A stretch of DNA of 59,477 nt from the IMG/VR virus record IMGVR_UViG_3300022851_000003; one strand, written 5' to 3'. Below, piece after piece: positions 1 through 59,477 of this stretch. A model generated the notes under the pieces. It ran no database searches and was not told the DNA's origin. It saw nothing but the letters and a program-made list of their open reading frames with translations. Origin of the DNA: a virus. Position 1 is the first letter of the stretch. Each line of letters starts with the position of its first letter. A program made the translations under genes and the position numbers.

Positions 1-127
1 AGGTTAAATAATGGCAGACTCAGTAAGAATCCAAATCATCCGAGACGACGTCGTCGTAGACGACTCATCGGCGGTCCTCGGATCAATGCAAGACGGGACC
101 AAAGTGCTTGACGCAATGGTCGCCGCG
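1..127. repeat. terminal overlap copy 1
   Basis: Identical to 59351-59477. Confidence 0.95.
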
Positions 128-3592: not shown

Positions 3593-4588
3593 GTGGACAA
3601 CGTACTTACGGGGATGGCAGTCATGGCATGTAATTTTTGCGGCAGTTTTGGGATCAACACGAAGTTCGGTTTCGCTCCCAGCGGCGCTAACGTGGACGCG
3701 ACGCTCGTGGCGGCCACCACTCGTGAAGAAATCCTCGTCGAGAACCTGAACTACAGCGATAGTGTGGTCGGTGGACGCGGCATCACCGGATGGATGGACG
3801 CTTCCTCGCTGAAACTACGCAACGGCCAAAGGCTTGTCTCCGGTGGGTTGATTATGGAAATCGGCCCGAACCAGATCGCACCCTGGCTCAGCGCCCTCGT
3901 TGGCAACAGCGCGGCGGCGGTTGCGAACGTGTCAACGACCAAGGAGAAGTGGGACGCGATTCCGTTCGACCTCTCGGTTGAACGCGACAACGTCGATCAC
4001 GGCTACCGCTACTGCGTTGTCAACCGCGCCGTCATTCGAGGGCGATCAAACCCAAGAGACCAACAAGGCCAAATCGTCCAGATGGCATTGAGTTTCCTGG
4101 GCGTCGAAGAGGAAGACATTACGTTCCCCGGCGCGTTGGCATTGCCGAGCGACGCGCAGTACCCATGGCTCCTCGGTGACGCGAGCCTAGATTACGGTGG
4201 TGAAACCTGCTCGCTGATCTCGTTCGACATCACAATCGAAAACATGCTCAAGCCTCTGTTCCGCAACCGACTGACCCCTGGTTGCTTTCGATCGCTCGGC
4301 CGAAAAATCACGATGGACTTTGCCGTTCCCTACGGGGCCGATTCGTACGCGGGATACATCGACGACAACTCGGCGGACGCGGCAGCCGCACTCACGTTCG
4401 CGTCGACCAACCTGCCCGCTGCCGTCTCGGATTACTCAACGATCTTCACGTTCCCCCAGACGCGTCGGATTGCCCACAACTACACGACCGCGAGCAAGGA
4501 CGAAATTCCGTTGCAAATGAAACTCCAGGCTTACATCAAGGGGTCTTCGCCAGCAATGACGATTGCGAACGTGATCTCGGCCGCGTAA
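3593..4588 (+). CDS. hypothetical virion protein
   Basis: 331-aa ORF in structural arc. Confidence 0.5.
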   Translation: MDNVLTGMAVMACNFCGSFGINTKFGFAPSGANVDATLVAATTREEILVENLNYSDSVVGGRGITGWMDASSLKLRNGQRLVSGGLIMEIGPNQIAPWLSALVGNSAAAVANVSTTKEKWDAIPFDLSVERDNVDHGYRYCVVNRAVIRGRSNPRDQQGQIVQMALSFLGVEEEDITFPGALALPSDAQYPWLLGDASLDYGGETCSLISFDITIENMLKPLFRNRLTPGCFRSLGRKITMDFAVPYGADSYAGYIDDNSADAAAALTFASTNLPAAVSDYSTIFTFPQTRRIAHNYTTASKDEIPLQMKLQAYIKGSSPAMTIANVISAA

Positions 4589-6789: not shown

Positions 6790-8171
6790 TGCTCTCGATC
6801 AATCTCGCTGGGTTCCCTCCGGTTGTTCGCGCCCGCGTACGCGGCAGTTGCAATAGCACTCCCGGGCGTGCGACGGTTGAATGCGTTGTCGGAAACGGCA
6901 CCGCCCCGCCATGGCCTGACATGACGACGCTCACGATGTCTGACGGATCAACGTCGCTCTCCTGGGGTGACATGCGGGTCGTCAAATCGCCTCGCGTTCG
7001 TGGCGGTGTGATGAGGGTTGTGCTCGAAGACAGTCGTTGGAAGCTGCGAGAGACGATCCTTGGCGGCGATTACAATCAACTCGATTCGTCCGGTGTATCG
7101 CTGGTTGCTTCCCAGACGACCATGTCGGCGCTGGCTTCGACCGTCGGGTCTAAATCGTTCCTCGACGTGGTGGCTGGCGGGGTGATTCCCGCATACACAC
7201 CACCGGCTCCGTGGGGCGGATCGCTGGCATCGCAAGCACTCGACGGGTTGTTGCGGGACGCGGTTTGCCGACTTCATTACGATCCGACGACCGGACGGTA
7301 TAGCATTTGGTCGGCCGGAACCGGCAACTACCCCGCCCTCGCCAATCGCTTGTACTCGCCCTCACCCAATCGCGGAATCCGAACACTGTACGTTCGCAGC
7401 GCACCGATCCTCTACGAAGCATCCATGATCGCGGAGGCCGTGGTGGAAGATGGCACCGGGCAAATCGTCAACATCTCCGCACATGACCCCGATGAATACT
7501 TCAGCGGATTCCCCTCAATCGCCGACCCTGTCCTCCAAAGAAAACTCAAGGAGGGTGCCTTTCGATTGTGGCAAGTATCCGCCACCAACAAGCGTCTCAA
7601 GAACCACCGAGCCTTGTCGTTAATCTCCGGCAGTAACGAAGCGAAGTACATGGGAGCCAAGCTGGTTCACGCCGACCTCGCCGGGCAGATGCAAGAACTC
7701 GATGTCACACTCGTGCGATCCATCTCTCACCGCGACGAGACCGGGTACGGCATCTACTACAGTCCCACGCCGTTTCTTGAATCCTCGGGCGCCAGCCTGA
7801 AGACCACAGCGGAAATCATCGCGGCCTACAACACTGACTCAAACGCCGGACTTCAACGTGAGATCGTCACTCGAGCCGTCTCGTCCACCGGGTCTGATCG
7901 CGCAATCAATGTCCACTGGATCCGACCGATTGACTCGTCCCAACCGGACGTGCCTGCGAGCCAATGGACGACGCACCTCAATGCGGTCGCCAATGCCTTG
8001 CAAACCTCCTTCGCGAACAACCCTCACACGGTCACGCTGCCGGGACTCGTCGCATCGCCGCCTAGCGGTCACATCGGAGCCTATGAGTATTACGCACAGA
8101 TCCAACCGACCGCCACGTTGCTCACACGATTCGCTCTCGACTTCGACGCCAGCCCAGGAGACATCACCTAA
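6789..8171 (+). CDS. hypothetical protein
   Basis: 460-aa ORF. Confidence 0.5.
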   Translation: MLSINLAGFPPVVRARVRGSCNSTPGRATVECVVGNGTAPPWPDMTTLTMSDGSTSLSWGDMRVVKSPRVRGGVMRVVLEDSRWKLRETILGGDYNQLDSSGVSLVASQTTMSALASTVGSKSFLDVVAGGVIPAYTPPAPWGGSLASQALDGLLRDAVCRLHYDPTTGRYSIWSAGTGNYPALANRLYSPSPNRGIRTLYVRSAPILYEASMIAEAVVEDGTGQIVNISAHDPDEYFSGFPSIADPVLQRKLKEGAFRLWQVSATNKRLKNHRALSLISGSNEAKYMGAKLVHADLAGQMQELDVTLVRSISHRDETGYGIYYSPTPFLESSGASLKTTAEIIAAYNTDSNAGLQREIVTRAVSSTGSDRAINVHWIRPIDSSQPDVPASQWTTHLNAVANALQTSFANNPHTVTLPGLVASPPSGHIGAYEYYAQIQPTATLLTRFALDFDASPGDIT

Positions 8172-26109: not shown

Positions 26110-26673
26110 TTAGAATTTCTTCCCGCCATCGGCCAACCGATGCTCTGCCTTGTGGTCGGCACGCTGCGCATTGAACGCCATCTTCTCCCGGTAGGCTCCT
26201 TCCAGATCCAATCCGTGACCGCCGCAGTAATCCAGAATGCGAATCACCGCGTCGGCCATCTCGACCTCTTCCATCTTGCGGTGCGGGAGCTTGTCATCCA
26301 TCAAGTCTTTGCGAGCTCCTTCCATCGCCTCGGCGATCTCGCTGACGATCAACATCATCTGCTCGCCTCTGTTGCGTTCGATCCGCTCCCCGGTCTTGGG
26401 ATCGTGCCACCATTTCAAGTTGGCTTCATGAGCCTCGGCCGCGTAGTCATTGAGAGTCATTCCCAGTTCTTCTTCCGATGCAACGTCTACGACACACTGC
26501 TGGCAAACAAAGTCGTATCCATCCCCGTAATCGTGATAGGGCTTGATCCGCCGCATCTCGTCTTCGTATTGGCACCGACCGCAGTTTCGGCACGTCCTAA
26601 TAGGTACGTCGCCGTCGATGTCGCTCGGCATACGACCGGGGCTTGCCAATCGTTTCTCTGGGATTGAATTCAT
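26110..26673 (-). CDS. MazG-like nucleotide pyrophosphohydrolase with N-terminal zinc ribbon
   Basis: EVEMADAVIRILD...AYREKMAFNAQR helical NTP-PPase motif; CRNCGRC...CQQC at N-terminus. Confidence 0.55.
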   Translation of the reverse strand: MNSIPEKRLASPGRMPSDIDGDVPIRTCRNCGRCQYEDEMRRIKPYHDYGDGYDFVCQQCVVDVASEEELGMTLNDYAAEAHEANLKWWHDPKTGERIERNRGEQMMLIVSEIAEAMEGARKDLMDDKLPHRKMEEVEMADAVIRILDYCGGHGLDLEGAYREKMAFNAQRADHKAEHRLADGGKKF

Positions 26674-27264: not shown

Positions 27265-28233
27265 TTAATCCTTCTTGGCTAGCTCGTTGAGCAACTCGCC
27301 CAACTGCTTGCTTTCCGCCGGGCTCAAATCTTCATCGCCATCGAACTCGCCGCCGATCTCGATCAACGCGTCGTGACTCGATGCGGACAGGAGACGACGT
27401 TCGTACGATGCGAATGCTTCGCTCTTGCCGTCCGCTGATTCGGCGATCAGTGGCGATTCTTCTTGCATCTCTGTCGACAAGTCCAAACCGCTTCCCATGT
27501 CGCCGAGTTTGCGTCGTTGAATCCCGGTCGATCGGACGTGTCCTTCAAACACAACATCCTCGTCGTCCTTCTCAAACGCATCGCGAATCTCTGCCGACAA
27601 TGGCAACCACTTGGACACACGACGGAACACCGTTTTTTTAGCCATTTCGCTCCAATCGGTTTTCCATGGCCCGTTGTTGCCAGACTTGGACCGATTGCGG
27701 ATTGCCTCAACGGCATCCTTGGACATGACCTCGCACTTGGGTTCGCGGTCCTTCATTCGGACTTCGCAATACACCGCGATCACATCACCCTCGCTTTCCG
27801 GCTTGTCCTCGTCCCGTCGCAAATACCACGGGACATGATCGGCCACGATGCCTTTGCTGTACTCAAACAGGTCGCCTTCATGGACAACGTCGGCATGGAT
27901 CGACGACACAACACCGGATCGGTACGCCAGTTCCACCAATCCCTTGTAGTCAATGATGAGCTGGCAAGTGGTTCCATAGGGAATCAAGTGCGCCCTGCGA
28001 CCATCGGGCTCGAGTCCCCATTGGCTCAAGCTCATCATCGCCTCGAAGAACGAAGCCTGAGAACACTGGGCCAGTTTGGGAGTGCGGGTCAGTGCCGTAA
28101 TAGCAACCCGCACCATCCGCTCGGGCGTCATGTGGTCAGGGAGTATCTTGGCGATCTCGTTCTTAAAATGTTCACCCGAAAGATGATCGCGAATCGTTGG
28201 GGCGGACTTCGCAATTTGTTTGTCTTGACTCAT
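27265..28233 (-). CDS. recT: RecT-family single-strand annealing protein
   Basis: FKNEIAKILP...RMVRVAITALTRTPKLAQC...GLEPDGRRAHLIPYG...IIDYKGLVELAYRSG matches the RecT core. Confidence 0.8.
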   Translation of the reverse strand: MSQDKQIAKSAPTIRDHLSGEHFKNEIAKILPDHMTPERMVRVAITALTRTPKLAQCSQASFFEAMMSLSQWGLEPDGRRAHLIPYGTTCQLIIDYKGLVELAYRSGVVSSIHADVVHEGDLFEYSKGIVADHVPWYLRRDEDKPESEGDVIAVYCEVRMKDREPKCEVMSKDAVEAIRNRSKSGNNGPWKTDWSEMAKKTVFRRVSKWLPLSAEIRDAFEKDDEDVVFEGHVRSTGIQRRKLGDMGSGLDLSTEMQEESPLIAESADGKSEAFASYERRLLSASSHDALIEIGGEFDGDEDLSPAESKQLGELLNELAKKD

Positions 28234-28282: not shown

Positions 28283-29290
28283 TCAGCTTGCCTCCCATTC
28301 TTTCTTGTAGTTCAGGTAATTCGGCATTGGCAGCGACAACACATCTCCGTAATGTTCGTGCTTCCAGATACCGCTCGACTCGCATCGACGCAGACCACGG
28401 AACGCCTTCTCGATCTCTTCGACCGCTTGATCGATCCAAGCCGGTTCCAATTCGTAGACCTCCACGCGATAAGGTTTCTTTTTCTCAACGCAGACGAAGT
28501 GAAACGGAACCTCGCGACCCAGCAACGCGTTGACCATGCTGCCGTACAAGACTCGTTGCCGGGCATACCCGAAGTCGGCGACCGCGTTGGCAAACCCTTT
28601 CGGTGATGCACTCCGCACGGTCTTCAAGTCGGCAACGAAACCGCCCATCGCCGTCTCGCTATATCGATCCAACTTGCATCGCGTCAGAATGCCGGTGCCC
28701 GCGTGCTCGCCGATCAACGGAACCTCGCTTTCACCTTCACCGAACAGCAGACGATTGGCCGAGTCGTGAGCACGCAAGGCGTCCTCCATGTCACGAAGCT
28801 GATCGTACGTCTCGTTCGACGTGACAACCTGGCCCTCGGGAACAACGACCGACGATCGAACCTTTTGCTCGAGCTGATCGAACTCCTCGCTTTTCATCAA
28901 CACGCTGCCCTTATGCAACTTGGCCCAATCCGTGTAAGGCTTGCCACGGCAATAACCTTGCTCGTTCAACACATGATCGGGAATCCGAGTCGCGATCCGA
29001 AACTTCGAGGCGATCTTCAAATACTCATTACGCGAAACCCCGGTCACTTCGGGATCCAGCACGGTCGACGTTTGCAGCCCACCCTCGAGCGTCATCTCAT
29101 GAAGGGCGGTGCCGAGCAATCTATCCGGCGTATCGCCACTGGGTTCGATCAGACCCGTGTTGTAAAGACCGTCGTACAGAGCCGGGTCATCGAGGAACCT
29201 GCTCATCTTCGAGTTACTGACGCCTGGCCCAGCGTGATACTCTTCGTTGGTGCCAGCATCAAAACGTTCAATAGCGGTGAACTGAATCAC
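28283..29290 (-). CDS. RecE/YqaJ-like PD-(D/E)xK exonuclease
   Basis: N-terminal EEYHAGPGVSNSKMSRFLDDPALY typical of exonuclease VIII-like proteins; directly upstream of recT; GTG start overlaps csrA stop. Confidence 0.6.
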   Translation of the reverse strand: MIQFTAIERFDAGTNEEYHAGPGVSNSKMSRFLDDPALYDGLYNTGLIEPSGDTPDRLLGTALHEMTLEGGLQTSTVLDPEVTGVSRNEYLKIASKFRIATRIPDHVLNEQGYCRGKPYTDWAKLHKGSVLMKSEEFDQLEQKVRSSVVVPEGQVVTSNETYDQLRDMEDALRAHDSANRLLFGEGESEVPLIGEHAGTGILTRCKLDRYSETAMGGFVADLKTVRSASPKGFANAVADFGYARQRVLYGSMVNALLGREVPFHFVCVEKKKPYRVEVYELEPAWIDQAVEEIEKAFRGLRRCESSGIWKHEHYGDVLSLPMPNYLNYKKEWEAS

Positions 29291-29466
29291 TTATCATTAC
29301 TTTCATTCTTGGGTTGGGTTTGAATAATGTCATCCCGATGGATGTCGATGGTCCGATCCGCGTCGATACCGATACGAACCTTGTCGCCACGAATGTCAAC
29401 GACAACGACCTTGATGTCCTTGCCAATCATGATGGCTTCACCAATGCGTCTACTAAGAACCAACAC
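29287..29466 (-). CDS. csrA: CsrA/RsmA-family RNA-binding regulator
   Basis: VLVLSRRIGEAIMIGKDIKVVVVDIRGDKVRIGIDADRTIDIHRDDI aligns with CsrA ([46 protein letters not shown]); GTG start 6 nt after GGGAG. Confidence 0.7.
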   Translation of the reverse strand: MLVLSRRIGEAIMIGKDIKVVVVDIRGDKVRIGIDADRTIDIHRDDIIQTQPKNESNDK

Positions 29467-29509
29467 GCCACACTCCCTTTGGTGTTGAAGAACAGGACTT
29501 TCAAAACAT

Positions 29510-29594
29510 TCGAGGCGATCGGAATCGAACCGACGCACGCCACCTTTCCGCAAACGCTTCTTAAATGGCCGCTCTACCAGTGAGCTACGCCTCG
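29510..29594 (-). tRNA. tRNA-like element with non-canonical anticodon region
   Basis: Acceptor CGAGGCG/CGCCTCG, D-arm GCTC-ACTGGTA-GAGC, T-arm GTCGG-TTCGATT-CCGAT; a 4-bp stem with a 23-nt loop replaces the anticodon arm. Confidence 0.4.
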
Positions 29595-29703: not shown

Positions 29704-29976
29704 TCAGCTAGACAGTGGGATCAGGACTTCAAAGGTGGGGACGCATTCGACCTTGCTGACCTTCAGACCGTAGAGACTGTCGAGTTCCATCACCAAGTTG
29801 CCGGTGCGAATCTTGTCTCCGTGCTTAAAAGCGACGTTATGTCCCTTGAGCGTTTCCTTGATGGCGTCGCAAACAATCTTGCGTCGCTTCATCGCATCGT
29901 CCTGGGTCTTGTCGATCGAGGCGATCTCGTTGAGGGCTTCATCCAACATCAACGATTCATTATCACGAACATTCAT
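29704..29976 (-). CDS. hypothetical protein (first gene of early operon)
   Basis: ORF 29704-29994; ATG at 29976 preceded by AAAGGA. Confidence 0.4.
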   Translation of the reverse strand: MNVRDNESLMLDEALNEIASIDKTQDDAMKRRKIVCDAIKETLKGHNVAFKHGDKIRTGNLVMELDSLYGLKVSKVECVPTFEVLIPLSS

Positions 29977-29994
29977 CTCATTCCTTTCGAGCAC

Positions 29995-30290: not shown

Positions 30291-30419
30291 CGGCGTGCGA
30301 ACCAACGCTCACGCCACGAAACGCAGGAATCCCCTTGCCTCCTATACGCAAAACAGCCCACGCGAATCAGGTTCACGAAGGCTGAGAGACGGCTAGCGTA
30401 AGACAAAGGGATTTAGGAT

Positions 30420-30463
30420 CCAGTTCCTTTACTGGAGTGCAGGTTCGATTCCTGTCAGCCCTA
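30420..30463 (+). other. tRNA 3' fragment (candidate attP core)
   Basis: T-arm GCAGG-TTCGATT-CCTGT plus acceptor 3' strand CAGCCCT-A; no complementary 5' acceptor strand upstream. Confidence 0.45.
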
Positions 30464-30539: not shown

Positions 30540-31706
30540 TCACGATTGTTTGTACGGCGATTCATCGAAGTCGATCTTCCCTTGCAGATCACCGACGTAG
30601 AATTTCCGCGTCGTTGTCTCGCTCGAATGCCGCAGGATCTCCTGGCACAGTTGGATAGGCATCCCACGCAGGCTCCATCGCGTGACCATGCTCGACCGGA
30701 AGTGTTTGGCCGTGGCCGTCTTCGGTGGCGACCCGGGTTCGGCGATCACCTCGGCCTTGGCTCCGATCGCGGAGATCAGCTTGGACAGAGCGGTTCGGTC
30801 TTTCACTTCGCCGGTCTCGCAACGCGGCTGGTAAATCGCTTCCGTCCGATCCGCCCGCTCCCGCAGGTGCGATGCGAAGTCGTTGGTAATCCTGGCGACC
30901 TGCGCACGCCGGTTCTTCTGGGCGGAAGTCCACGACATCATCGGTGTCGGCGTGTCGAGTCCGATCGGGTAATGCCAGTCACGGCGGGTTGCGTGCATCC
31001 CCAACGGCTCTCGCATCCGACAACCACTGAGCCAAAGAGCTTCCAGGTATTCCTGAACACTCGCCGCCGACCGGGATCCAACCAGGCCCGGGCAAACGTC
31101 CTGCATCTTCCGCAGCGATTCCTCACTGATCGGGATCAACCGCATCGCAGGAAGGTTCTGCTCTTGTCGGCCACGTCTTCGATTCGGCGGCATGTATCGC
31201 ATCAACTCCAGGGAAGCCGCCCACGAAAGACCGCTTCGGAGCGTTGCCATGTAACTCGGGATCGATCCGACCGCGATCGGCTTAAAGCCATCAATCCCCC
31301 GTCGAAGCGCAGTTTCCACCGAGGCGAGGAACAGAGGGGACACGTCCGAAAGAACGAACTCCCCTTGAATGTCCCGGCCCGCAACGGCATCGACGCGTTT
31401 ACAGACGGCAGACCACTTGTATCGGTTGTCGCTCGATGTGTCACTGAGATGGTCAGTCAGGTAGCGATCGCAGAAACGATCCCACGTCCATCCCTCGTTC
31501 CCCGAATTCAGCTTGGAATTCAGTTTGCTCTGAAGCTCGTCGGCCAGTTTATCGGCCGCTCGCTTCGATCTCTTGGAACGGGTGATGATTTCGGTCTTCT
31601 GGGTCTTAACAGACCGCGAGCCGAAGGGCCGCCACTTCAAGTAGTAGCAGCCCTTCGACGATTTCCAAAACGCGCTCACCCGCACAGTGGGCGCACAATG
31701 ATTCAT
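30540..31706 (-). CDS. int: tyrosine integrase
   Basis: C-terminal catalytic region KHFRSSMVTRW ... LRHSSETTTRKFYV (HxxR, H, Y); next to tRNA-derived att core. Confidence 0.8.
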   Translation of the reverse strand: MNHCAPTVRVSAFWKSSKGCYYLKWRPFGSRSVKTQKTEIITRSKRSKRAADKLADELQSKLNSKLNSGNEGWTWDRFCDRYLTDHLSDTSSDNRYKWSAVCKRVDAVAGRDIQGEFVLSDVSPLFLASVETALRRGIDGFKPIAVGSIPSYMATLRSGLSWAASLELMRYMPPNRRRGRQEQNLPAMRLIPISEESLRKMQDVCPGLVGSRSAASVQEYLEALWLSGCRMREPLGMHATRRDWHYPIGLDTPTPMMSWTSAQKNRRAQVARITNDFASHLRERADRTEAIYQPRCETGEVKDRTALSKLISAIGAKAEVIAEPGSPPKTATAKHFRSSMVTRWSLRGMPIQLCQEILRHSSETTTRKFYVGDLQGKIDFDESPYKQS

Positions 31707-43407: not shown

Positions 43408-43617
43408 ATGCCTCTTCCCGATCTGACGACTCGCCAGCAATCCACTCTCATCAACAAGGTGGATCACAACTGCCGTCGAAATGGCAAGAGATTCCTGCGT
43501 GATCTCGGCGGAACTGGGCACGCCGCTGAACTCGACGCGCAATTACAAATCGCCCGTAACAATCCCGATGCGGTGAAAGCCGCCGAACTCTTTACGAAGG
43601 AGAAAGATCGGAAATGA
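43408..43617 (+). CDS. small protein co-transcribed with serine recombinase
   Basis: 69-aa ORF; stop overlaps recombinase start. Confidence 0.4.
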   Translation: MPLPDLTTRQQSTLINKVDHNCRRNGKRFLRDLGGTGHAAELDAQLQIARNNPDAVKAAELFTKEKDRK

Positions 43618-44438
43618 AAGTCATAGGATATGGTCGTGAATCGACCGCCGACCAATCGATTTCTGCCGAAGTGCAGCAGCGACAATGCCGCGAGTGGTTT
43701 GACCGAACATTCAAGGACAATCCTGACGCGAAGTTTGTGCGAATGCTCAACGACGAGTCCGTCTCAGGCAAGACACGCCTGTTCCAACGTCCGCAGGGGA
43801 GTCTCCTGTTGACCATGCTCGAACGAGGCGACACCGTCGTCGCGTCCAAAATGTCACGGATGTTTCGATCCATGCCCGACACGGTCAACACGCTCGACGT
43901 GTTCAATGAAGCCGGCATCAAGGTCGTGCTGCTCGACATCGGCATGGACTTCGACACGCCAGTGGGCAAACTAATCTTCCACATCCTCGGGGCAGTCAAT
44001 CAGTTTGAACGCGAACTAATCTCCGAGCGGACCAAGGAAGCTCTCGCCCAGCTCCGTGAACGTGGCCAATACCTCGGCTCACCACCGCCGGGGTGGAAGT
44101 TCGACAGCAAGCGGACCAACGGGATTCGGGAACTGATCCCTGACATGGACCGCCGCACCTTCGGGGAATACTCCCTCGATCAACTGGTCGAAGGCCGATC
44201 CGCCAAGTCGATTGCCTGCGAGATCGAAGCACTATTGCGGCGCGAGCACATCCAACGACACGGCACCAACCTGAAGGAAAAACGAGAGAAGATCGCGTTC
44301 TCCGACACCGATGTCGTTCGACTCGCCGCCTTTGCAGTGGCCGGGTTCCCGCCGATCAATAGCACGGCGCTGAAAAAAGTCCTCGGTGTCAATCCATTCC
44401 GAGTTGAAACCCTGCGGCAACTGGCAGCGTCCGCCTAA
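43614..44438 (+). CDS. serine recombinase (resolvase/invertase family)
   Basis: N-terminal VIGYGRESTADQS with catalytic Ser context; resolvase-like core through QFERELISERTKEAL; C-terminal extension. Confidence 0.75.
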   Translation: MKVIGYGRESTADQSISAEVQQRQCREWFDRTFKDNPDAKFVRMLNDESVSGKTRLFQRPQGSLLLTMLERGDTVVASKMSRMFRSMPDTVNTLDVFNEAGIKVVLLDIGMDFDTPVGKLIFHILGAVNQFERELISERTKEALAQLRERGQYLGSPPPGWKFDSKRTNGIRELIPDMDRRTFGEYSLDQLVEGRSAKSIACEIEALLRREHIQRHGTNLKEKREKIAFSDTDVVRLAAFAVAGFPPINSTALKKVLGVNPFRVETLRQLAASA

Positions 44439-47995: not shown

Positions 47996-48586
47996 GTGCC
48001 CCGCCCTGCTGACGAACCTGCTTTCACGCCCGAGCATCCGCCGGGCGACGAAAAGTTCTGCACGCTATGCGGGGAAGAAAAACCCATCGACGAATTCCAC
48101 GTCGATGAGTCGGCTCATGACGGACGCAAGTCCAATTGCAAGGCGTGCCGATCACTTCAGCACGCCGAAGATGTGGAGTCTAAGGTCGACCCCCGCCTCG
48201 CCAAGATTGAAGAGGCAGGACTCGAAGCGCTCGACGCCTTCGCGGGTGGCGGATCATTCAACCCGCACACCCAAGAGCTGATCGACGGGTTTATGAGATT
48301 CCTGGGCGGTCACTACGGCCTGGTGAAACTGACGATGGCCCACTACCACGCGGCCAAACCAGGCAGTGCCGAGCGAGGGAAGACACTCGATAAAATCTAC
48401 CGGCTGATCGCCGCTGAGGACAAGCAGGATGGCTCGCTCGACAAACTTGACCGACGCCAACTCGAAGCCCTCGTCGTCAGCATCGGCACCAAAGCCGGGA
48501 TGCTGCCCAAGCCGAACGACACGCTGTCTCTCGATCACCCCGAAACCGTCAACGCGATCGCCCGTTCCAAAGGCGACGCACTATGA
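47996..48586 (+). CDS. zinc-ribbon protein (possible terminase small subunit)
   Basis: CTLCGEEK...CKAC; directly upstream of and overlapping the large terminase start. Confidence 0.35.
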   Translation: MPRPADEPAFTPEHPPGDEKFCTLCGEEKPIDEFHVDESAHDGRKSNCKACRSLQHAEDVESKVDPRLAKIEEAGLEALDAFAGGGSFNPHTQELIDGFMRFLGGHYGLVKLTMAHYHAAKPGSAERGKTLDKIYRLIAAEDKQDGSLDKLDRRQLEALVVSIGTKAGMLPKPNDTLSLDHPETVNAIARSKGDAL

Positions 48587-51441
48587 TTGACGACATCGAA
48601 TTCAGTGACATCGATCTTTCGACACACCTCGACACCGCCAACGAGATGCAGTCGGGCAGCGAAGCCAACGACTACGTGATCGACGAGTATCACCTGCACA
48701 AGATGCACTCCGCAGCGTCGGAGATCCAGCGCCGGGACATGGAGGCGATGCGGATCTATCGCCCCTCCAAAATCCAAGAGCAGTACCACGCATCCACTGC
48801 CAAGGAGACCGTGTTCGTTGCCGGGAACCAAATCGGCAAATCCATTGCCGGATACTCGGAAGACGGACGAGCTGCCGGTGGATGCGACCCGTACGGCAAG
48901 TACCCCGAGAAAGATGGCATCCTGGCCATCGTGGTCTACAAGGAATCGCAGATCAGGCTGAACACCTATCGGTATCTCCTCAAGCCCGGTGCGTTCGACA
49001 TCATCCAAGACGAAGAGACCGGCATCTGGAAACCCTATTATCCCTGGGTTCCCTCCGATGTTGCTCGCGCCGATCAACGGCGGCCCGCCCCACCGATCCT
49101 TCCACCGCGAATGATTAAGAGAATCCACTGGAAGTCCAAGATGGGCAACGTCCTGTCTCGGATCGACATGGAGAACGGTTGGGAGATTCACGTCTTCTCG
49201 TCGACCGCGAAACCAGATGCCGGGTTCCAAGCCGACCTCGTTCATATCGATGAAGACATCGCCAACGAAGAATGGTACGTCGAGATGATCGCCCGTCTCT
49301 CGATCCGCAAGGGACTCCTGCGATGGACCGCCCTACCGCTGTTCGATAACGACGCGCTGCCTCGTATCGTCGAACGGGCCGACGACGAAGCGGAGAAGCA
49401 CGCACGCGGCGGACCTGTGCCTACCACGACGGTCGTTCGCGGAACCATTTTCGATAACCCGTACCTGACCGACGATACCCGCGAAGAAAACATCAAGCGA
49501 TGGAAGGACGCGGGCGACGATGTCTACCGGCAACGTGCCCTCGGAGAACTCATCACCGACACGGTTCGGATGTACCCGACGTTCACGCCGGAAATCCATG
49601 CCGTCCAACGTTACGGCGAATCGCATCCTGAGTTGTTCGGCGAGTACCTTCGCACCCGTCGAATCCCCGACGATTGGTGTCTGAGATTGTTTGTTGACCC
49701 TGGGTTCTCCACCTGTGCCGCGTTGCTGTTCGCGACCCTGCGACCCGAGGGCGGCGACGACTCCGAACCAATGATTCACGTTGCTGTGCGTGAAATCTAT
49801 CGCCAGCAATGTGACGCCTCGATCTTTGCCCAACTCGCCTCGCAAACCGTTGGCGATCGATGGTTGCAAGCGATGGTCATCGACGCCCACGGTGGTCGAC
49901 TCACCGGCATCGGCGATGGTCGGCGTCCACAAGAGATCTACGAAAGCGAACTGGCCGAACGAAACGTCGTGTGCGTGGAGACCGGCTCTCGCTTCCGTGC
50001 TGGCTGCGACGACATCGTCTACCGGGAAACCGCACTGCGACAACGGTTGATCGTCTCGCCAGTCACCGGGCTACCGGAGTTTATGTACGACGAGGAGATG
50101 TGCCCGAACCTTGAAAAAGAAATGGTGCGGTTCCGAAAGCTGAGAACCCGTGGCGTCATCACCGATAAAGGCAACCGCAAAGCATTTACGCACGCTGTCG
50201 AGTGTTTCTGTGACCAAACCGAAGTCCTTACTGAAAGTGGCTGGAAGCGTTTTGCAGACGCCAGTATCAGCGACCGTTTAGCGACCGTGAACTTGGATAC
50301 CGATACGCTTGAGTTTCAGCATCCATCTCGAATTGTTGAAAGACCTCACAACGGACCGATGGTTCATGTTCACGCACAGAAGCTCAATGCGATGGTCACT
50401 CCTAATCATCGGATGGTTTACTACTCCGACACCGCAAGGCGAAAAAAGACAGGTCCATCTATCTGTTTCGCGGGCGACCTGTCTCCAAGCTATGCGTTAA
50501 AGCTGGCGGCAAAAAACTGGAACGCAGTTTCACCAAAGACATTCGTGCTGCCTGCGGTAGAACTGGATTCGCGACCAGGTAAGCCTGCCGAATTAAACAG
50601 ACTCGACTTCGCCCGGTTCATGGGATGGTACATCGCCGAAGGCTCTGCGGACAAAACAGTGCGTTGCCCTGGAAAGGGCTATCGCGTGTGCATTGCACAG
50701 AGAAAAGAACACGGCATCAACGCGATTCGCGAAATGCTTTCAAAGCTACCGTTTCATTTCGTTGTATCGGGCGACTGCTTCGTGATCTCCAACAAGCAAC
50801 TGTGGTCGTACCTTCGCCAGTTCGGAGACTGCTACACCAAGTTCGTTCCAGACTGGGTGCGACACGGAAGCAGAGAAGTCATCGAGTCGTTTATGGAAGG
50901 CGCTATGGCTGGCGATGGGTGGGTACAAAAGAACGCTCGACGATACGGAACCTCCAGCCCCCGCCTCGCCGACGACATCCAAGAACTATTCCTCAAACTC
51001 GGTTGTTCTGCATCTGTCACTGTTCGGTCGGCAGAGACGGCCGTGTCAAGGATGGTGAGAGGAAAGCCCTGCAAATCTACCTGTGATTTCTTCACGGTAA
51101 TCGAGAGGCTTGTTCCGAGCGTCCGCCTTAGTGACGCACACGACAAGCCGAATTTCAGCACAACGAACTACACCGGAAAGGTGTTCTGCGCAACCGTCCC
51201 CAATGGGACTCTTGTTGTAAGACGCAACGGCCAACCGCTCGTCGCTGGCAATTGCTATGAGTACGCAGCCGCCGACGAACTCAAGTACCACGCACCTCCC
51301 GCCCGTCGAACCCGCGAAACCCCCGGCGAACGTCGTGTTCGGATGTGGCGGGAACGCCAAGCGAAGCGACGAAAACAAATGGGTGGCGCTCTCGGCGTCA
51401 TCCATGGCGGCATCGACCTGTCTGCTCCCATGCCCACTTAA
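48583..51441 (+). CDS. terL: terminase large subunit interrupted by an intein
   Basis: P-loop-like VFVAGNQIGKS, Walker B-like ADLVHIDE, nuclease-like RLFVDPGFS and AMVIDAHGG; 350-aa intein in the C-terminal region. Confidence 0.65.
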   Translation: MIDDIEFSDIDLSTHLDTANEMQSGSEANDYVIDEYHLHKMHSAASEIQRRDMEAMRIYRPSKIQEQYHASTAKETVFVAGNQIGKSIAGYSEDGRAAGGCDPYGKYPEKDGILAIVVYKESQIRLNTYRYLLKPGAFDIIQDEETGIWKPYYPWVPSDVARADQRRPAPPILPPRMIKRIHWKSKMGNVLSRIDMENGWEIHVFSSTAKPDAGFQADLVHIDEDIANEEWYVEMIARLSIRKGLLRWTALPLFDNDALPRIVERADDEAEKHARGGPVPTTTVVRGTIFDNPYLTDDTREENIKRWKDAGDDVYRQRALGELITDTVRMYPTFTPEIHAVQRYGESHPELFGEYLRTRRIPDDWCLRLFVDPGFSTCAALLFATLRPEGGDDSEPMIHVAVREIYRQQCDASIFAQLASQTVGDRWLQAMVIDAHGGRLTGIGDGRRPQEIYESELAERNVVCVETGSRFRAGCDDIVYRETALRQRLIVSPVTGLPEFMYDEEMCPNLEKEMVRFRKLRTRGVITDKGNRKAFTHAVECFCDQTEVLTESGWKRFADASISDRLATVNLDTDTLEFQHPSRIVERPHNGPMVHVHAQKLNAMVTPNHRMVYYSDTARRKKTGPSICFAGDLSPSYALKLAAKNWNAVSPKTFVLPAVELDSRPGKPAELNRLDFARFMGWYIAEGSADKTVRCPGKGYRVCIAQRKEHGINAIREMLSKLPFHFVVSGDCFVISNKQLWSYLRQFGDCYTKFVPDWVRHGSREVIESFMEGAMAGDGWVQKNARRYGTSSPRLADDIQELFLKLGCSASVTVRSAETAVSRMVRGKPCKSTCDFFTVIERLVPSVRLSDAHDKPNFSTTNYTGKVFCATVPNGTLVVRRNGQPLVAGNCYEYAAADELKYHAPPARRTRETPGERRVRMWRERQAKRRKQMGGALGVIHGGIDLSAPMPT
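50203..51252 (+). mobile_element. intein with LAGLIDADG homing endonuclease
   Basis: Block A CFCDQTEVLTESG, block B TPNH, LAGLIDADG motifs FMGWYIAEGS and FMEGAMAGDG, C-terminal VAGN followed by Cys +1. Confidence 0.7.
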
Positions 51442-58337: not shown

Positions 58338-59357
58338 ATGTCTGGCACATCCCTCGATCTATCGCAAATTCGCACCGACGCTCTCACGAGCGCCGCGACG
58401 TTTCGGACGTTGATCGGTGTGTACTCGACTGCGGACGTCGATGGGCTGATCGCTGCGATTACAGCGTTGACAAGCGAGGACATTGACACCCTTGCTGAAA
58501 TCAACGCGATCATTGGAGATGCCGATGTTGCGTCAGTGTCTTATGTCGATGGACTGGCAGCGAACTACGCCACAGCGGCACAGGGGGCACTTGCTGACAC
58601 CGCGTTGCAATCCGCCGACATCACAAGCGGTGCGATCACGGCGGGGACGGGAGACATTGATTTTGACGCTCTAGGTGGTGCAGGGTCGCCTCTTGTTTTG
58701 ACTGCTTCACTAGCGACTGAAGTCCCTCTAACAGTCAAAGCCGCAGCAAGTCAAACGGCCAACTTGACTGAGTGGCAGGATAATGCTGGGACTAATCTGA
58801 CTTGGGTCGACAAACTCGGTAATATCTATCTACAAGGTGCAGCCAGTAGATTATTTCGAATTTATATGGAAGGTTCTAACCCGGTACTAGATGCCACTGT
58901 CGGAGCTGCGTCTGCGAGGATAAGCCTAAAAGGCGCGCCTGTTAGACTGATGGGAAACGTGGAGTTTAGCAACGTAACAAACCAGATAATGGCTCAAATA
59001 ATCACGAGTAGTTTTGACGTCCAACTGATCGGTAATACCGCTGGTAGTTTCTCTATATCTATTCCACAATCGAGCAACGGAAACCAAGGCAATGAAACTC
59101 TCTCGATCACTGGACAAACAGCCGAGGAACTTTCTACCAATGTAATTGTTGGCGGCGATGTCGTGATAACGGCTGGTGACGGAGCATCAGCTAGTGCCGG
59201 TGCTGCTGACGGAGGTGATTTAATTCTCCAAGGTGGTACAGGATACGGGACCGGGAGACAAGGGCTTATACTGGCTAGCAATTTACCTACGTCTGATCCC
59301 ACCGTTGCCGGAGCACTTTGGAACGACAGCGGCACTCTTAAAATATCAGTAGGTTAA
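58338..59357 (+). CDS. tail-fibre-like protein
   Basis: Ala/Thr/Gly/Ser-rich 339-aa ORF ending AGALWNDSGTLKISVG; stop lies in the terminal overlap. Confidence 0.5.
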   Translation: MSGTSLDLSQIRTDALTSAATFRTLIGVYSTADVDGLIAAITALTSEDIDTLAEINAIIGDADVASVSYVDGLAANYATAAQGALADTALQSADITSGAITAGTGDIDFDALGGAGSPLVLTASLATEVPLTVKAAASQTANLTEWQDNAGTNLTWVDKLGNIYLQGAASRLFRIYMEGSNPVLDATVGAASARISLKGAPVRLMGNVEFSNVTNQIMAQIITSSFDVQLIGNTAGSFSISIPQSSNGNQGNETLSITGQTAEELSTNVIVGGDVVITAGDGASASAGAADGGDLILQGGTGYGTGRQGLILASNLPTSDPTVAGALWNDSGTLKISVG

Positions 59358-59477
59358 ATAATGGCAGACTCAGTAAGAATCCAAATCATCCGAGACGACG
59401 TCGTCGTAGACGACTCATCGGCGGTCCTCGGATCAATGCAAGACGGGACCAAAGTGCTTGACGCAATGGTCGCCGCG
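59351..59477. repeat. terminal overlap copy 2
   Basis: Identical to 1-127. Confidence 0.95.

What the first reader, a model, noticed from the sequence alone, without database searches (positions are those of the whole stretch)
29287..29594. Phage CsrA homologue fused into an exonuclease-RecT operon, with a tRNA-like element just upstream
The 59-codon ORF at 29287-29466 (minus) aligns along its whole length with CsrA/RsmA and has a GGGAG RBS. Its stop overlaps the GTG start of the RecE-like exonuclease, which is followed by recT, so a global post-transcriptional regulator appears translationally coupled to the recombination module. A tRNA-shaped element lies 43 nt upstream on the same strand. 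That element's enlarged loop carries GGA-containing sequence (GCGGAAAGG), the core of CsrA binding sites, so it could act as a cis decoy or autoregulatory site.
Basis: partly seen in the sequence, partly recalled or inferred. Interest (0 to 1): 0.8.

Follow-up and report, generated by a model that had tools for sequence, protein, structure and literature searches.

The report
Phage csrA operon with tRNA-like leader
A temperate phage carries a genuine CsrA RNA-binding regulator as the first gene of its RecE/RecT recombination operon, just after a disabled tRNA-Phe look-alike; similar tRNA or tRNA-like elements precede csrA in many unrelated phages, which suggests an undescribed RNA leader or processing signal, not the CsrA decoy first proposed.

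Summary
The ORF at 29287-29466(-) is a CsrA homologue (Pfam 74.8 bits; all 15 best PDB fold matches are CsrA/RsmA/RsmE). Its stop overlaps by 4 nt (GTGA) the only usable start of an exonuclease VIII/DUF3799 gene, and recT follows. Forty-three nt upstream lies an 85-nt cloverleaf (Rfam tRNA 48.2 bits). It has a tRNA-Phe(GAA) body with 14 extra nt in the anticodon loop, so it probably cannot decode.

Phage csrA is already known (a PHROG family; 1.2% of phage genomes). The new part is the arrangement. Pattern scans found about 120 loci, in 26 CsrA clusters, where a tRNA or tRNA-like element ends 25-55 nt before csrA. Many are non-decoding, down to a bare acceptor/T-arm minihelix. In several lineages csrA again abuts a nuclease gene.

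GGA is not conserved in these elements, so comparison gives the decoy idea no support. The element is not the attP either: that is a tRNA-Leu(UAG) 3' fragment beside the integrase.

My best reading, inferred and not shown, is a co-transcribed tRNA-like leader recognised by RNase P or RNase Z. A decaying tRNA-Phe gene kept only by old synteny remains a serious rival. Moderately interesting; a new variant of known kinds.

The parts
29510..29594 (-). tRNA-like element A. It has a tRNA-Phe(GAA)-type body: 7-bp acceptor stem, canonical D arm (U8, A14, G18G19), T arm with loop UUCGAUU, 4-nt variable loop and discriminator A. The anticodon loop is 21 nt. No CCA is encoded.
   Evidence: Rfam RF00005 48.2 bits, E 3e-7. 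ARAGORN -i calls tRNA-Phe(gaa) i(34,14); ARAGORN default finds nothing. Cloverleaf minimum-energy fold. Invariant in all near-identical contigs except a TT->CC change at loop positions 32/33 in one sub-lineage.
29549..29562 (-). 14-nt insertion AAGAAGCGUUUGCG in the anticodon loop, as placed by ARAGORN between positions 33 and 34. The GAA 'anticodon' follows at 29546-29548.
   Evidence: The placement of the insert within the 21-nt loop is ARAGORN's choice, not a mapped boundary.
29467..29509 (-). 43-nt leader between the tRNA-like element and csrA. The Shine-Dalgarno GGGAG is at 29473-29477, in the context AGGGA (= A-N-GGA, a possible CsrA autoregulatory site). No sigma-70-type promoter or intrinsic terminator was found here.
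   Evidence: Sequence; promoter/terminator scan.
29287..29466 (-). csrA: 59 aa, GTG start. Residues L2, L4, R6, R7, H43, R44 and I47 are kept. Pro37 is replaced by Asp, and the C-terminal tail is short.
   Evidence: Pfam, PHROG and PDB matches; alignment with 30 homologues; structure model and fold search.
28283..29290 (-). RecE-like exonuclease (DUF3799 PD-(D/E)XK; PHROG exonuclease VIII). Its GTG start overlaps the csrA stop by 4 nt.
27265..28233 (-). RecT single-strand annealing protein.
   Evidence: Pfam RecT E 8.6e-51; PHROG 148 E 9e-73.
29704..29994 (-). 96-aa ORF of unknown function upstream on the same strand. It ends 109 nt before the tRNA-like element and could be co-transcribed with it.
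   Evidence: no family match. Called as a 90-aa gene in public contigs.
30408..30463 (+). attP: the 3' two-thirds of a tRNA-Leu(UAG) gene, running from the anticodon loop UUAGGA through the long variable arm and T arm to the 3' acceptor strand. It lies 77 nt from the 3' end of the integrase gene. It belongs to the phage but not to the csrA module.
   Evidence: The 23-mer GCAGGTTCGATTCCTGTCAGCCC lies within a ~60-nt conserved block with unrelated flanks in 4 other viral contigs.
30540..31706 (-). Tyrosine integrase.
   Evidence: PHROG integrase E 3.4e-10; weak Pfam Phage_integrase hit, E 0.0011.

Best explanation
Shown. The window is the circular genome of a temperate phage. Its CsrA homologues and the related loci point to a Planctomycetota host. 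The phage encodes a bona fide CsrA-family RNA-binding protein as the first cistron of an early csrA-exonuclease VIII-recT operon. The 4-nt stop/start overlap makes exonuclease synthesis depend on csrA translation (overlap shown, coupling inferred).

Inferred. CsrA binding to its own AGGGA Shine-Dalgarno would then throttle both csrA and the nuclease. The protein could also act on host GGA-containing mRNAs.

The 85-nt element 43 nt upstream derives from a phage tRNA-Phe(GAA) gene. An intact tRNA-Phe sits at the same place and distance in another phage (L041). The 14-nt expansion of the anticodon loop most likely makes it non-decoding, yet it keeps the acceptor stem, D arm and T arm.

Proposed mechanism (inferred, not shown). 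The element is transcribed with csrA as a tRNA-like leader or intercistronic 'punctuation' element. RNase P would cut at its 5' end. RNase Z or another 3'-processing activity would cut after the discriminator, since no CCA is encoded. That would release a csrA-exo-recT mRNA with a short, defined ~43-nt leader, and perhaps a stable tRNA-like RNA. It is one member of a recurrent phage architecture: tRNA or tRNA-like element, then csrA, then nuclease, recombination or replication genes.
For: CsrA identity.

Operon. Public gene calls give the same coordinates.

Recurrence of csrA at the head of nuclease, recombination or replication genes: DUF3799 (L272, -4 nt, with a RecT match in the same locus), YqaJ (L293, -4 nt), PD-(D/E)XK (L028, L014), AAA_24 (5 loci), clamp-like (13 loci).

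tRNA-Phe origin. A canonical tRNA-Phe(GAA) lies 44 nt upstream of csrA in L041/L144/L174.

Recurrence of the adjacency: a T-loop motif 35-65 nt before a CsrA start gave 9 of 59 true CsrA hits in IMG/VR, 11 of 32 in GTDB genomes (mostly Planctomycetota) and 99 of 113 in metagenomes. The hits with a perfect acceptor helix and a CsrA ORF of at least 45 aa (94 loci) fall into 26 CsrA clusters at 70% identity.

Shape conservation. The T loop was imposed by my pattern, but acceptor pairing was not. 104 of 118 cases have a perfect 7-bp acceptor helix against 45.5 expected, with 50 different sequences.

Non-decoding forms. Thirty-eight of 99 are not called as tRNA even in intron mode and 11 only in intron mode. 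Examples are a 46-nt acceptor/T-arm minihelix and 110-141-nt forms. L131 has the same 7-bp stem and 18-nt loop as the window.

Co-transcription. Spacers of 25-55 nt leave little room for a separate promoter. In AT-rich loci, 17 of 30 have a -10-like hexamer 4-13 nt upstream of the tRNA 5' end, against 2.8 at control positions. No promoter or terminator motif lies between element and csrA in the window. None of the 12 commonest trailers, which cover 71 of the 77 elements, is CCA.

Phage context of the other groups.
Against: There are no transcript or cleavage data, so processing is purely inferred from shape.

All contigs of the window's own lineage are 97-100% identical. They cannot show selection on the element. 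A recently broken tRNA-Phe gene would look the same.

The pattern scans are conditioned on a T loop and a CsrA start. They prove recurrence, not frequency. In an unconditioned sample of 78 viral csrA loci, only 2 have a strict tRNA-like element within 150 nt upstream. There, tRNA-like elements also occur next to other genes, so the element may not be specific to csrA.

Folding energy is not exceptional.

Planctomycete promoters are poorly defined, so a promoter between element and csrA cannot be excluded.
Confidence: 0.45

Rival explanations
1. Decaying gene. The element is simply a phage tRNA-Phe gene recently inactivated by a 14-nt insertion. It has no function of its own. Its position before csrA is inherited synteny from an ancestor with an intact tRNA-Phe-csrA unit.
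For: An intact tRNA-Phe lies at the same position in L041. The body is still 48 bits tRNA-like. The only polymorphism in the lineage is in the loop, and it changes U33, as expected if decoding is not under selection. Folding energy is unexceptional. All available genomes are near-identical, so there is no test of purifying selection.
Against: Many independent lineages keep non-decoding tRNA-like elements in exactly this position, with intact acceptor and T helices of unrelated sequence. L131 has the same 7-bp stem and ~17-18-nt loop on a different tRNA body. This argues that non-decoding forms are maintained and are not merely transient wrecks.
Confidence: 0.25
2. The enlarged loop presents a GGA that binds the phage (or host) CsrA, so the element acts as a cis decoy or second autoregulatory site together with the Shine-Dalgarno GGA.
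For: GCGGAA sits in a 17-nt loop closed by a 7-bp stem. The csrA Shine-Dalgarno is AGGGA. L134/L130 carry a CAGGAU hairpin and L109 a GGAGGA stretch in their elements. Leaders contain 2 or more GGA in 23 of 77 cases.
Against: GGA is not enriched in the elements: 1.31 against 1.48 expected overall, and 1.10 against 0.89 in the middle part; 31 of 77 have none. The minimal forms lack any anticodon arm. L131's loop has no GGA. The window motif lacks the A-N-GGA context. The two GGAs are about 70 nt apart, beyond the 10-63 nt range reported for dual-site binding (my own knowledge of the CsrA literature). If the element is cleaved off, it cannot act in cis.
Confidence: 0.12
3. Functional tRNA. The 14 nt are removed as an intron, or tolerated, and the element supplies tRNA-Phe (or another specificity) during infection.
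For: ARAGORN intron mode yields a canonical loop UU-GAA-AG after removal of the insert. L131 gives CU-UCC-AG in the same way. The tRNA-Phe-like features A73, U59 and U60 are present.
Against: Bacterial tRNA introns are group I introns of more than 200 nt, and no bacterial machinery is known for a 14-nt insert (established knowledge). No bulge-helix-bulge motif appears in the fold. The 33/34 placement is a free choice of the program within a 21-nt loop. One sub-lineage has C at position 33, which is a universally conserved U. Many related elements have no anticodon arm at all.
Confidence: 0.05
4. Attachment site. The tRNA-like element is the phage attP, or a scar of integration into a host tRNA gene, and csrA lies next to it because cargo genes accumulate at att sites.
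For: The integrase gene is 1 kb away. In Planctomycetota genomes the module lies a few kb from tRNA-Met genes, and an integrase gene lies between them in L176.
Against: A separate, classical attP was found next to the integrase 3' end: a tRNA-Leu(UAG) 3' fragment at 30408-30463. It is shared as a ~60-nt block with unrelated flanks by 4 other viral contigs. The 3' half of element A occurs only in this phage lineage. An attP needs no 5' acceptor strand, yet 104 of 118 elements have one.
Confidence: 0.03

Closest known systems
Phage-encoded CsrA homologues (Burkholderia Bcep22-like/Lessievirus phages such as JC1 gp47; RsmM-type genes of P. aeruginosa phages; PHROG 9500)
   Same: A small CsrA-family protein encoded by a phage. 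It was reported in 30 of 2517 phage genomes (PMC7366521). In JC1 it is treated as a moron gene (PMC9144972). The window protein matches PHROG 9500.
   Different: In JC1 the gene sits among the head genes and may be virion-associated. Here it is the first cistron of the RecE/RecT early operon, overlaps the nuclease gene, and follows a tRNA-like element. No function of any phage CsrA has been shown in those papers.
RecET-type recombination modules (Rac prophage recE-recT and relatives)
   Same: An exonuclease VIII-family nuclease followed by RecT on one strand.
   Different: The known modules are not described with a CsrA cistron fused upstream (my own knowledge; not found in the literature searches).
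tRNA and tRNA-like processing signals in longer transcripts: bacterial tRNA-mRNA co-transcripts (e.g. the E. coli tufB operon), RNase P cleavage in intercistronic regions of E. coli operons, mitochondrial tRNA punctuation, MALAT1 mascRNA, murine gammaherpesvirus 68 tRNA-miRNA units (all from my own knowledge)
   Same: A tRNA-shaped module (acceptor plus T arm) is embedded in a transcript next to another functional RNA or ORF. It provides RNase P and RNase Z cut sites.
   Different: None of these is a phage csrA leader. Cleavage here is untested. The elements range from intact tRNAs to 46-nt minihelices.
Stable tRNA-like RNAs of phage T4 (species 1 and 2 RNAs in the tRNA cluster; my own knowledge)
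   Same: Phage-encoded, non-decoding RNAs with tRNA-like ends, made from tRNA-containing transcripts. Their function is unknown.
   Different: They lie inside a tRNA gene cluster, not directly before a protein-coding operon. There is no sequence relation.
CsrB/RsmZ-type sponge RNAs
   Same: They would be the model for the decoy idea: GGA in hairpin loops binding CsrA.
   Different: Sponges carry many GGA hairpins. This element has one GGA, in a poor context, and GGA is not conserved among related elements. There is no Rfam match to any Csr/Rsm RNA.
Bacterial Y RNA-like YrlA (tRNA-mimicking domain; PMC4201824)
   Same: A non-coding RNA with a T-arm/D-arm tRNA mimic. Some are phage-borne.
   Different: In YrlA the RNA ends lie in the Ro-binding stem, not the acceptor stem, and the gene accompanies an rsr (Ro60) gene. 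There is no Rfam YrlA match, and no Ro60-type protein among the window ORFs that were scanned.

Membership tests
CsrA/RsmA family (PF02599) | Profile match over the whole ~50-residue domain, above the curated cutoff | tested here: met
   74.8 bits against a cutoff of 27, residues 1-49 of the 53-position model. PHROG 9500 E 1.7e-17.
CsrA/RsmA family (PF02599) | Conserved RNA-binding residues (L2, L4, R6, R7, R44, I47 in E. coli numbering; the list is from my own knowledge) | tested here: met
   The alignment of 31 sequences shows M1 L2 V3 L4 S5 R6 ... H43 R44 invariant and present in the window protein. P37 is replaced by D and E46 by D.
CsrA/RsmA family (PF02599) | Beta-strand core plus C-terminal helix fold | tested here: met
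   AlphaFold monomer: strands 11-14, 18-26, 29-36 and helix 44-50, pLDDT 74. The top 15 Foldseek PDB matches are all CsrA/RsmA/RsmE, TM about 0.58. The domain-swapped dimer was not modelled.
CsrA/RsmA family (PF02599) | Binds GGA-containing RNA and regulates translation | not testable with these tools
   Needs gel shift, RIP-seq or reporter assays.
tRNA (Rfam RF00005) | Cloverleaf covariance-model score above the gathering threshold | tested here: met
   48.2 bits against 29, full-length model match.
tRNA (functional, decoding) | 7-nt anticodon loop with U33 and a defined anticodon | tested here: not met
   The loop is 21 nt. ARAGORN default finds no tRNA. One sub-lineage has C at positions 32/33. 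It is therefore filed as tRNA-like or tRNA-derived, not as a tRNA gene.
tRNA (functional, decoding) | Aminoacylation and 3' CCA | not testable with these tools
   No CCA is encoded: the trailer is AUG. None of the 12 commonest trailers, which cover 71 of the 77 related elements, is CCA.
RecE/RecT-type recombination module | A PD-(D/E)XK 5'-3' exonuclease gene next to a RecT-family annealase gene on one strand | tested here: met
   DUF3799 E 9e-21 and PHROG exonuclease VIII E 6.7e-53; RecT E 8.6e-51; 49-nt gap, same strand.
RNase P / RNase Z substrate (tRNA-like processing element) | Coaxial acceptor stem plus T arm with a T loop, and 5' leader and 3' trailer present | tested here: met
   7-bp acceptor stem, 5-bp T stem and UUCGAUU loop in the window element. 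A perfect acceptor helix is present in 104 of 118 related cases against 45.5 expected.
RNase P / RNase Z substrate (tRNA-like processing element) | Actual cleavage at the predicted sites | not testable with these tools
   Needs end mapping or in vitro cleavage.
Csr/Rsm sponge or CsrA-binding leader | Several A(N)GGA motifs presented in hairpin loops and conserved among relatives | tested here: not met
   There is one GGA, in GCGGAA context. GGA is not enriched or conserved in 77 related elements. No Rfam Csr/Rsm family match.
Phage attP in a tRNA gene | A block identical to the 3' part of a host tRNA, next to the integrase gene, shared among phages with unrelated flanks | tested here: not met
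   Not met for element A: its 3' half occurs only in this lineage. Met instead by the tRNA-Leu(UAG) fragment at 30408-30463.

The most novel reading that the evidence does not exclude
Acceptor/T-arm tRNA mimics, ranging from intact tRNAs to 46-nt minihelices and 85-141-nt forms with expanded arms, form a previously undescribed class of cis-acting leaders of phage csrA-headed early operons. They would be matured by RNase P and RNase Z to set the dose or stability of the csrA-nuclease mRNA. The released tRNA-like RNA might have a role of its own, for example as bait for tRNA-targeting host defences or as a CsrA partner.
Probability: 0.3. Interest if true: 0.75.

Novelty: new variant of a known kind. 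Interest (0 to 1): 0.55.

Why it matters
CsrA is a master post-transcriptional regulator of bacteria. What phages do with their own copies is unknown.

This work shows that in many unrelated phages csrA is the first gene of the early nuclease, recombination or replication operon, often overlapping the next gene. That ties host-style translational control to phage DNA metabolism and suggests built-in feedback on a potentially toxic nuclease.

The recurrent tRNA or tRNA-like element directly upstream, often clearly non-decoding, points to tRNA-shaped RNA processing or leader signals in phage operons. That is a bacterial-virus counterpart of mitochondrial tRNA punctuation and of herpesviral tRNA-miRNA units. 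It also means that some 'pseudo-tRNAs' in phage annotation may be regulatory elements.

The idea is directly testable by end mapping and by RNase P and RNase Z assays.

Tried and rejected
- Element A as attP: rejected. The real attP is a tRNA-Leu(UAG) fragment at 30408-30463. The 3' half of A is unique to this lineage.
- Search for lysogen junctions through exact-protein look-ups of CsrA and the integrase: all contigs (9 for CsrA, 11 for the integrase) show the phage arrangement, so no attB was found.
- blastn-short of elements A and B against about 300 fetched loci: no hits outside the lineage.
- Similarity to annotated phages: only a weak RecT DNA match to mycobacteriophages, which is uninformative.
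- Relatives of the exonuclease in IMG/VR: only near-identical contigs.
- Rfam at permissive E-values around the element and over 20 loci with odd tRNA-like elements: nothing but tRNA. They are therefore not YrlA, tmRNA, Csr/Rsm RNAs or any other curated family.
- Host-type csrA context (Calycomorphotria): next to flagellin with no tRNA, so the module was not copied from that host locus.
- Loop-to-leader pairing, read by eye from the sequence: only a 5-bp AAGAA/UUCUU match. I judged this to be chance.
- A 10-mer, GTTTGCGGAA, is shared between the window loop and the L095 element. It is noted, but too little to build on.
- Folding a 271-nt stretch showed no extra significant structure (z +1.7).
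- Literature searches for a tRNA-like element upstream of csrA or for phage tRNA-like leaders found nothing relevant.
- Not attempted: a custom covariance model. The elements are too heterogeneous to align, and only two lineages share the window's exact architecture.
Full report
**What the window is.** The first and last 127 nt of the window are identical, so it is a circular assembly of about 59.35 kb. It carries phage structural genes on the + strand: a tail tube, a P22-like portal, and a terminase large subunit with an intein-like LAGLIDADG insertion. An early region on the - strand between about 20 and 33 kb includes a tyrosine integrase at 30540-31706. Near-identical genomes (97-100%) occur in several metagenomes and in IMG/VR. 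The closest named CsrA relatives come from Planctomycetota, and so do most genomic copies of the related module. The host is therefore probably a planctomycete. This is inference.

**Checking the observation.** All four statements hold.

1. The ORF 29287-29466(-) starts at GTG, 6 nt after GGGAG, and encodes 59 aa beginning MLVLSRR.
   - It scores 74.8 bits against Pfam CsrA, E 5.2e-21.
   - It matches PHROG 9500 'CsrA-like regulator' and solved CsrA structures, E 9e-14.
   - In an alignment with 30 homologues it keeps the invariant L2, L4, R6, H43 and R44, but has Asp for the nearly invariant Pro37.
   - An AlphaFold model (pLDDT 74) has the expected strands and C-terminal helix. Its 15 best PDB fold matches are all CsrA/RsmA/RsmE.
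2. The csrA stop TGA overlaps the GTG of the next ORF (GTGA). That ORF matches DUF3799 and PHROG exonuclease VIII (E 6.7e-53), aligned from residue 14. No other in-frame start exists before residue 29, so the overlapping start is the real one.
3. recT follows after 49 nt.
4. The element 29510-29594(-) ends 43 nt before csrA and scores 48.2 bits against the Rfam tRNA model, E 3e-7 for the whole window.
   - ARAGORN misses it by default. With introns allowed it calls tRNA-Phe(GAA) with a 14-nt insert between positions 33 and 34.
   - The fold is a cloverleaf with a 7-bp anticodon stem and a 17-nt loop. Folding energy alone is not significant (z -1.2).

**What the tRNA-like element is.** Its body is of the tRNA-Phe type. 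It has the UAGCUCA..GGUAGAGC D arm, a UUCGAUU T loop and discriminator A, and GAA is present at the 3' side of the loop. Its stems differ from those of other tRNA-Phe genes. With a 21-nt anticodon loop it is very unlikely to decode. One sub-lineage even has C at the universally conserved U33. Bacteria have no known way to remove a 14-nt insert (established knowledge), and no bulge-helix-bulge motif is visible.

**It is not the attachment site.** A second T-loop motif lies at 30442-30452(+), 77 nt from the integrase 3' end. It belongs to a block that reads as the 3' two-thirds of a tRNA-Leu(UAG) gene: anticodon loop, long variable arm, T arm and 3' acceptor strand. Four unrelated viral contigs carry the same ~60-nt block with unrelated flanks on both sides. 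That is the classical picture of an attP in a tRNA gene. The 3' half of element A occurs only in this phage lineage.

**The lead that changed the picture.**
- *First example.* Another viral contig (L041) has a canonical tRNA-Phe(GAA) 44 nt upstream of its csrA, on the same strand.
- *The scans.* I then scanned for a T-loop motif 35-65 nt before a CsrA-like start. True CsrA genes followed in 9 of 59 hits in IMG/VR, 11 of 32 in GTDB genomes and 99 of 113 in metagenomes. The genome hits include Anatilimnocola sp. NA78, Planctopirus hydrillae and several Planctomycetota MAGs.
- *Diversity.* The 94 hits with a perfect acceptor helix and a CsrA ORF of at least 45 aa fall into 26 CsrA clusters at 70% identity.
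- *What the upstream elements are (99 metagenome hits).* 35 are tRNA-Leu(UAA), a few are Met, Phe, Cys, Asn and others, 11 are called only in 'intron' mode, and 38 are not called at all.
- *The uncalled elements.* They include a freshwater group whose element is just a 7-bp acceptor helix stacked on a T arm with a 12-nt bulge. It lies between an upstream ORF and csrA.
- *The enlarged elements.* There are also forms of 110-141 nt with large insertions. L131 has exactly the window's architecture, a 7-bp stem and an 18-nt loop, on a different tRNA body. L272 has a similar stem and loop but no D arm.
- *No known family.* None of these matches any other Rfam family, and most do not even reach the tRNA threshold.

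**Is the shape more than my search imposed?** The T loop was required by the pattern. The acceptor helix was not. Even so, 104 of 118 cases have a perfect 7-bp acceptor helix at the right place, against 45.5 expected from shuffled 3' strands, and 50 different sequences are used. Spacers to csrA are 25-55 nt. None of the 12 commonest 3' trailers, which cover 71 of 77 distinct elements, is CCA, and 56 of 77 have discriminator A. In AT-rich loci, 17 of 30 have a -10-like hexamer 4-13 nt upstream of the tRNA 5' end, against 2.8 at control positions. There the tRNA is the very start of the csrA transcript. Long loci of that group carry phage genes.

**Limits.** The scans are conditioned, so they show recurrence, not frequency.
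- In 78 viral csrA loci chosen only by protein similarity, 2 have a strict tRNA-like element within 150 nt upstream.
- My rough expectation from the background density in the same loci is about 0.2. That is an estimate, not a tool result.
- In those loci all 18 strict hits lie on the csrA strand. Several are non-canonical elements of 88-134 nt next to other genes. The elements may therefore be general punctuation of these early operons and not specific to csrA.

**The operon side.**
- *Genes immediately after csrA.* In the collected loci these include DUF3799 (L272, -4 nt overlap, with a RecT match in the same locus), YqaJ (L293, -4 nt), PD-(D/E)XK nucleases (L028 -1 nt, L014), AAA_24/Sak4-like ATPases (5 loci) and clamp-like proteins (13 loci).
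- *A further example.* The closest CsrA relative outside the lineage (P0002) lies in a phage early region with ArdA and YqaJ.
- *Conclusion.* A csrA gene at the head of phage DNA-metabolism genes, often overlapping the next gene, is thus a recurrent design.

**The decoy hypothesis.** GGA is not enriched in the elements: 1.31 against 1.48 expected overall, and 1.10 against 0.89 in the middle part. Thirty-one of 77 have none. Leaders are enriched, as expected for Shine-Dalgarno sequences. The minimal forms have no anticodon arm. The window's GGA is in GCGGAA context, whereas the Shine-Dalgarno has AGGGA. Comparison therefore does not support the loop as a conserved CsrA site. An idiosyncratic role in this phage is not excluded.

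**Most likely mechanism.**
- *The common denominator.* The feature shared by all these elements is the acceptor/T-arm 'top half'. That is the part recognised by RNase P, RNase Z and the CCA-adding enzyme (established knowledge).
- *Context.* The element sits 25-55 nt before the csrA start, inside or at the start of transcripts.
- *Proposal.* I therefore propose a co-transcribed tRNA-like leader or punctuation element whose processing defines the 5' end of the csrA-exo-recT mRNA. CsrA could then act on its own AGGGA Shine-Dalgarno and, through the overlap, on the nuclease.
- *What is shown.* The gene identities, the overlap, the tRNA likeness, the recurrence and the shape conservation.
- *What is inferred.* Co-transcription in this phage, cleavage, autoregulation and coupling.
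- *Main rival.* The window's element may be a recently broken tRNA-Phe gene kept only by old synteny.

**Comparison with what is known.**
- Phage csrA genes are documented in 30 of 2517 phage genomes (PMC7366521), in Bcep22-like JC1 (PMC9144972) and as PHROG 9500. The CsrA part is a new member of a known kind.
- I found no report of csrA fused to a RecE/RecT module or of tRNA-like elements upstream of csrA.
- tRNA-shaped processing signals are known elsewhere: bacterial tRNA-mRNA co-transcripts, RNase P cuts in operon mRNAs, mitochondrial punctuation, mascRNA, herpesviral tRNA-miRNA units and phage T4 species 1/2 RNAs (all from my own knowledge).
- Overall this is a new variant of known kinds and is moderately interesting.

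Noticed in passing
window 30408-30463 (+), next to integrase 30540-31706 (-); also L299-L302: Classical attP: the 3' two-thirds of a tRNA-Leu(UAG) gene. The same ~60-nt block, with unrelated flanks, occurs in four other IMG/VR contigs. Several different phages therefore appear to target the same or a similar host tRNA-Leu(UAG) gene. No attB or host was identified.
   Followed up: partly
window 1-127 and 59351-59477: The first and last 127 nt are identical, so this is a circular assembly and a complete ~59.35-kb phage genome.
   Followed up: yes
window 48583-51441 (+): A 952-aa ORF. Residues 54-459 match the terminase large subunit. The rest matches a LAGLIDADG_3 domain and intein-bearing PHROG families (thymidylate synthase, RNR, PhoH). 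It is probably a terminase interrupted by an intein with a homing endonuclease.
   Followed up: partly
window 43614-44438 (+): A serine recombinase (Resolvase N-terminal domain; PHROG DNA invertase) is present in addition to the tyrosine integrase. Its target, possibly an invertible segment, was not looked for.
   Followed up: no
window 26110-26673 (-): A MazG-like pyrophosphatase (PHROG 5658, E 1e-55) lies downstream in the same early operon as csrA-exo-recT.
   Followed up: no
window 29563-29564 (-); L002, L012, L138 and the L247 lineage: The only polymorphism in the tRNA-like element among near-identical phages is TT->CC at loop positions 32/33. ARAGORN then switches its call to 'tRNA-???(agaa)' or tRNA-Arg(gcg). 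The same sub-lineage has changes in the CsrA C-terminal tail.
   Followed up: partly
L109 (oriented ~3730-3866) and L221: A 136-nt element upstream of csrA with a tRNA frame (acceptor stem, D arm, T arm) and a 9-bp 'anticodon' stem. Its 53-nt insert itself looks like a permuted tRNA (T arm, then acceptor-like hairpin, then D arm) and carries GGAGGA.
   Followed up: partly
L189, L199, L206, L230, L241, L245, L252, L281, L298 and other freshwater metagenome contigs: A 46-48-nt acceptor/T-arm minihelix with a 12-nt bulge starts 9 nt after the stop of an upstream ORF and ends 36-38 nt before csrA. A DUF3799 exonuclease gene lies further downstream in at least three of these contigs. This is the most reduced form of the tRNA-like leader.
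   Followed up: partly
L188, L193, L194, L208, L213, L228 and other AT-rich metagenome contigs: tRNAs with anticodon UAA (Leu) but of type-I size (72-74 nt, no long variable arm) lie directly after a TATAAT-like box and before csrA. Related contigs have normal type-II tRNA-Leu(UAA) in the same place. The second csrA codon is UUA in these loci.
   Followed up: no
L035 2765-2898, 3349-3448 and 4571-4658; L022 3300-3431; L051 1894-2023; L047 2694-2798; L072 4906-5036: Several non-canonical tRNA-like elements of 88-134 nt lie within 3 kb of viral csrA genes, all on the gene strand. L035 and L051 share the motif AAUAUCGGGAG. This may be an unclassified family of phage tRNA-like RNAs.
   Followed up: no
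L178 (oriented ~7404-7486): A tRNA-Met(CAU)-like gene with a ~10-nt insertion in the D arm lies directly upstream of csrA in a Pirellulaceae MAG. It still scores 40 bits in Rfam.
   Followed up: no
window 29549-29558 (-) and L095/L238: The 10-mer GUUUGCGGAA in the window's enlarged loop also occurs in the 133-nt tRNA-like element upstream of csrA in a Planctopirus hydrillae prophage. This could be chance or distant homology.
   Followed up: no
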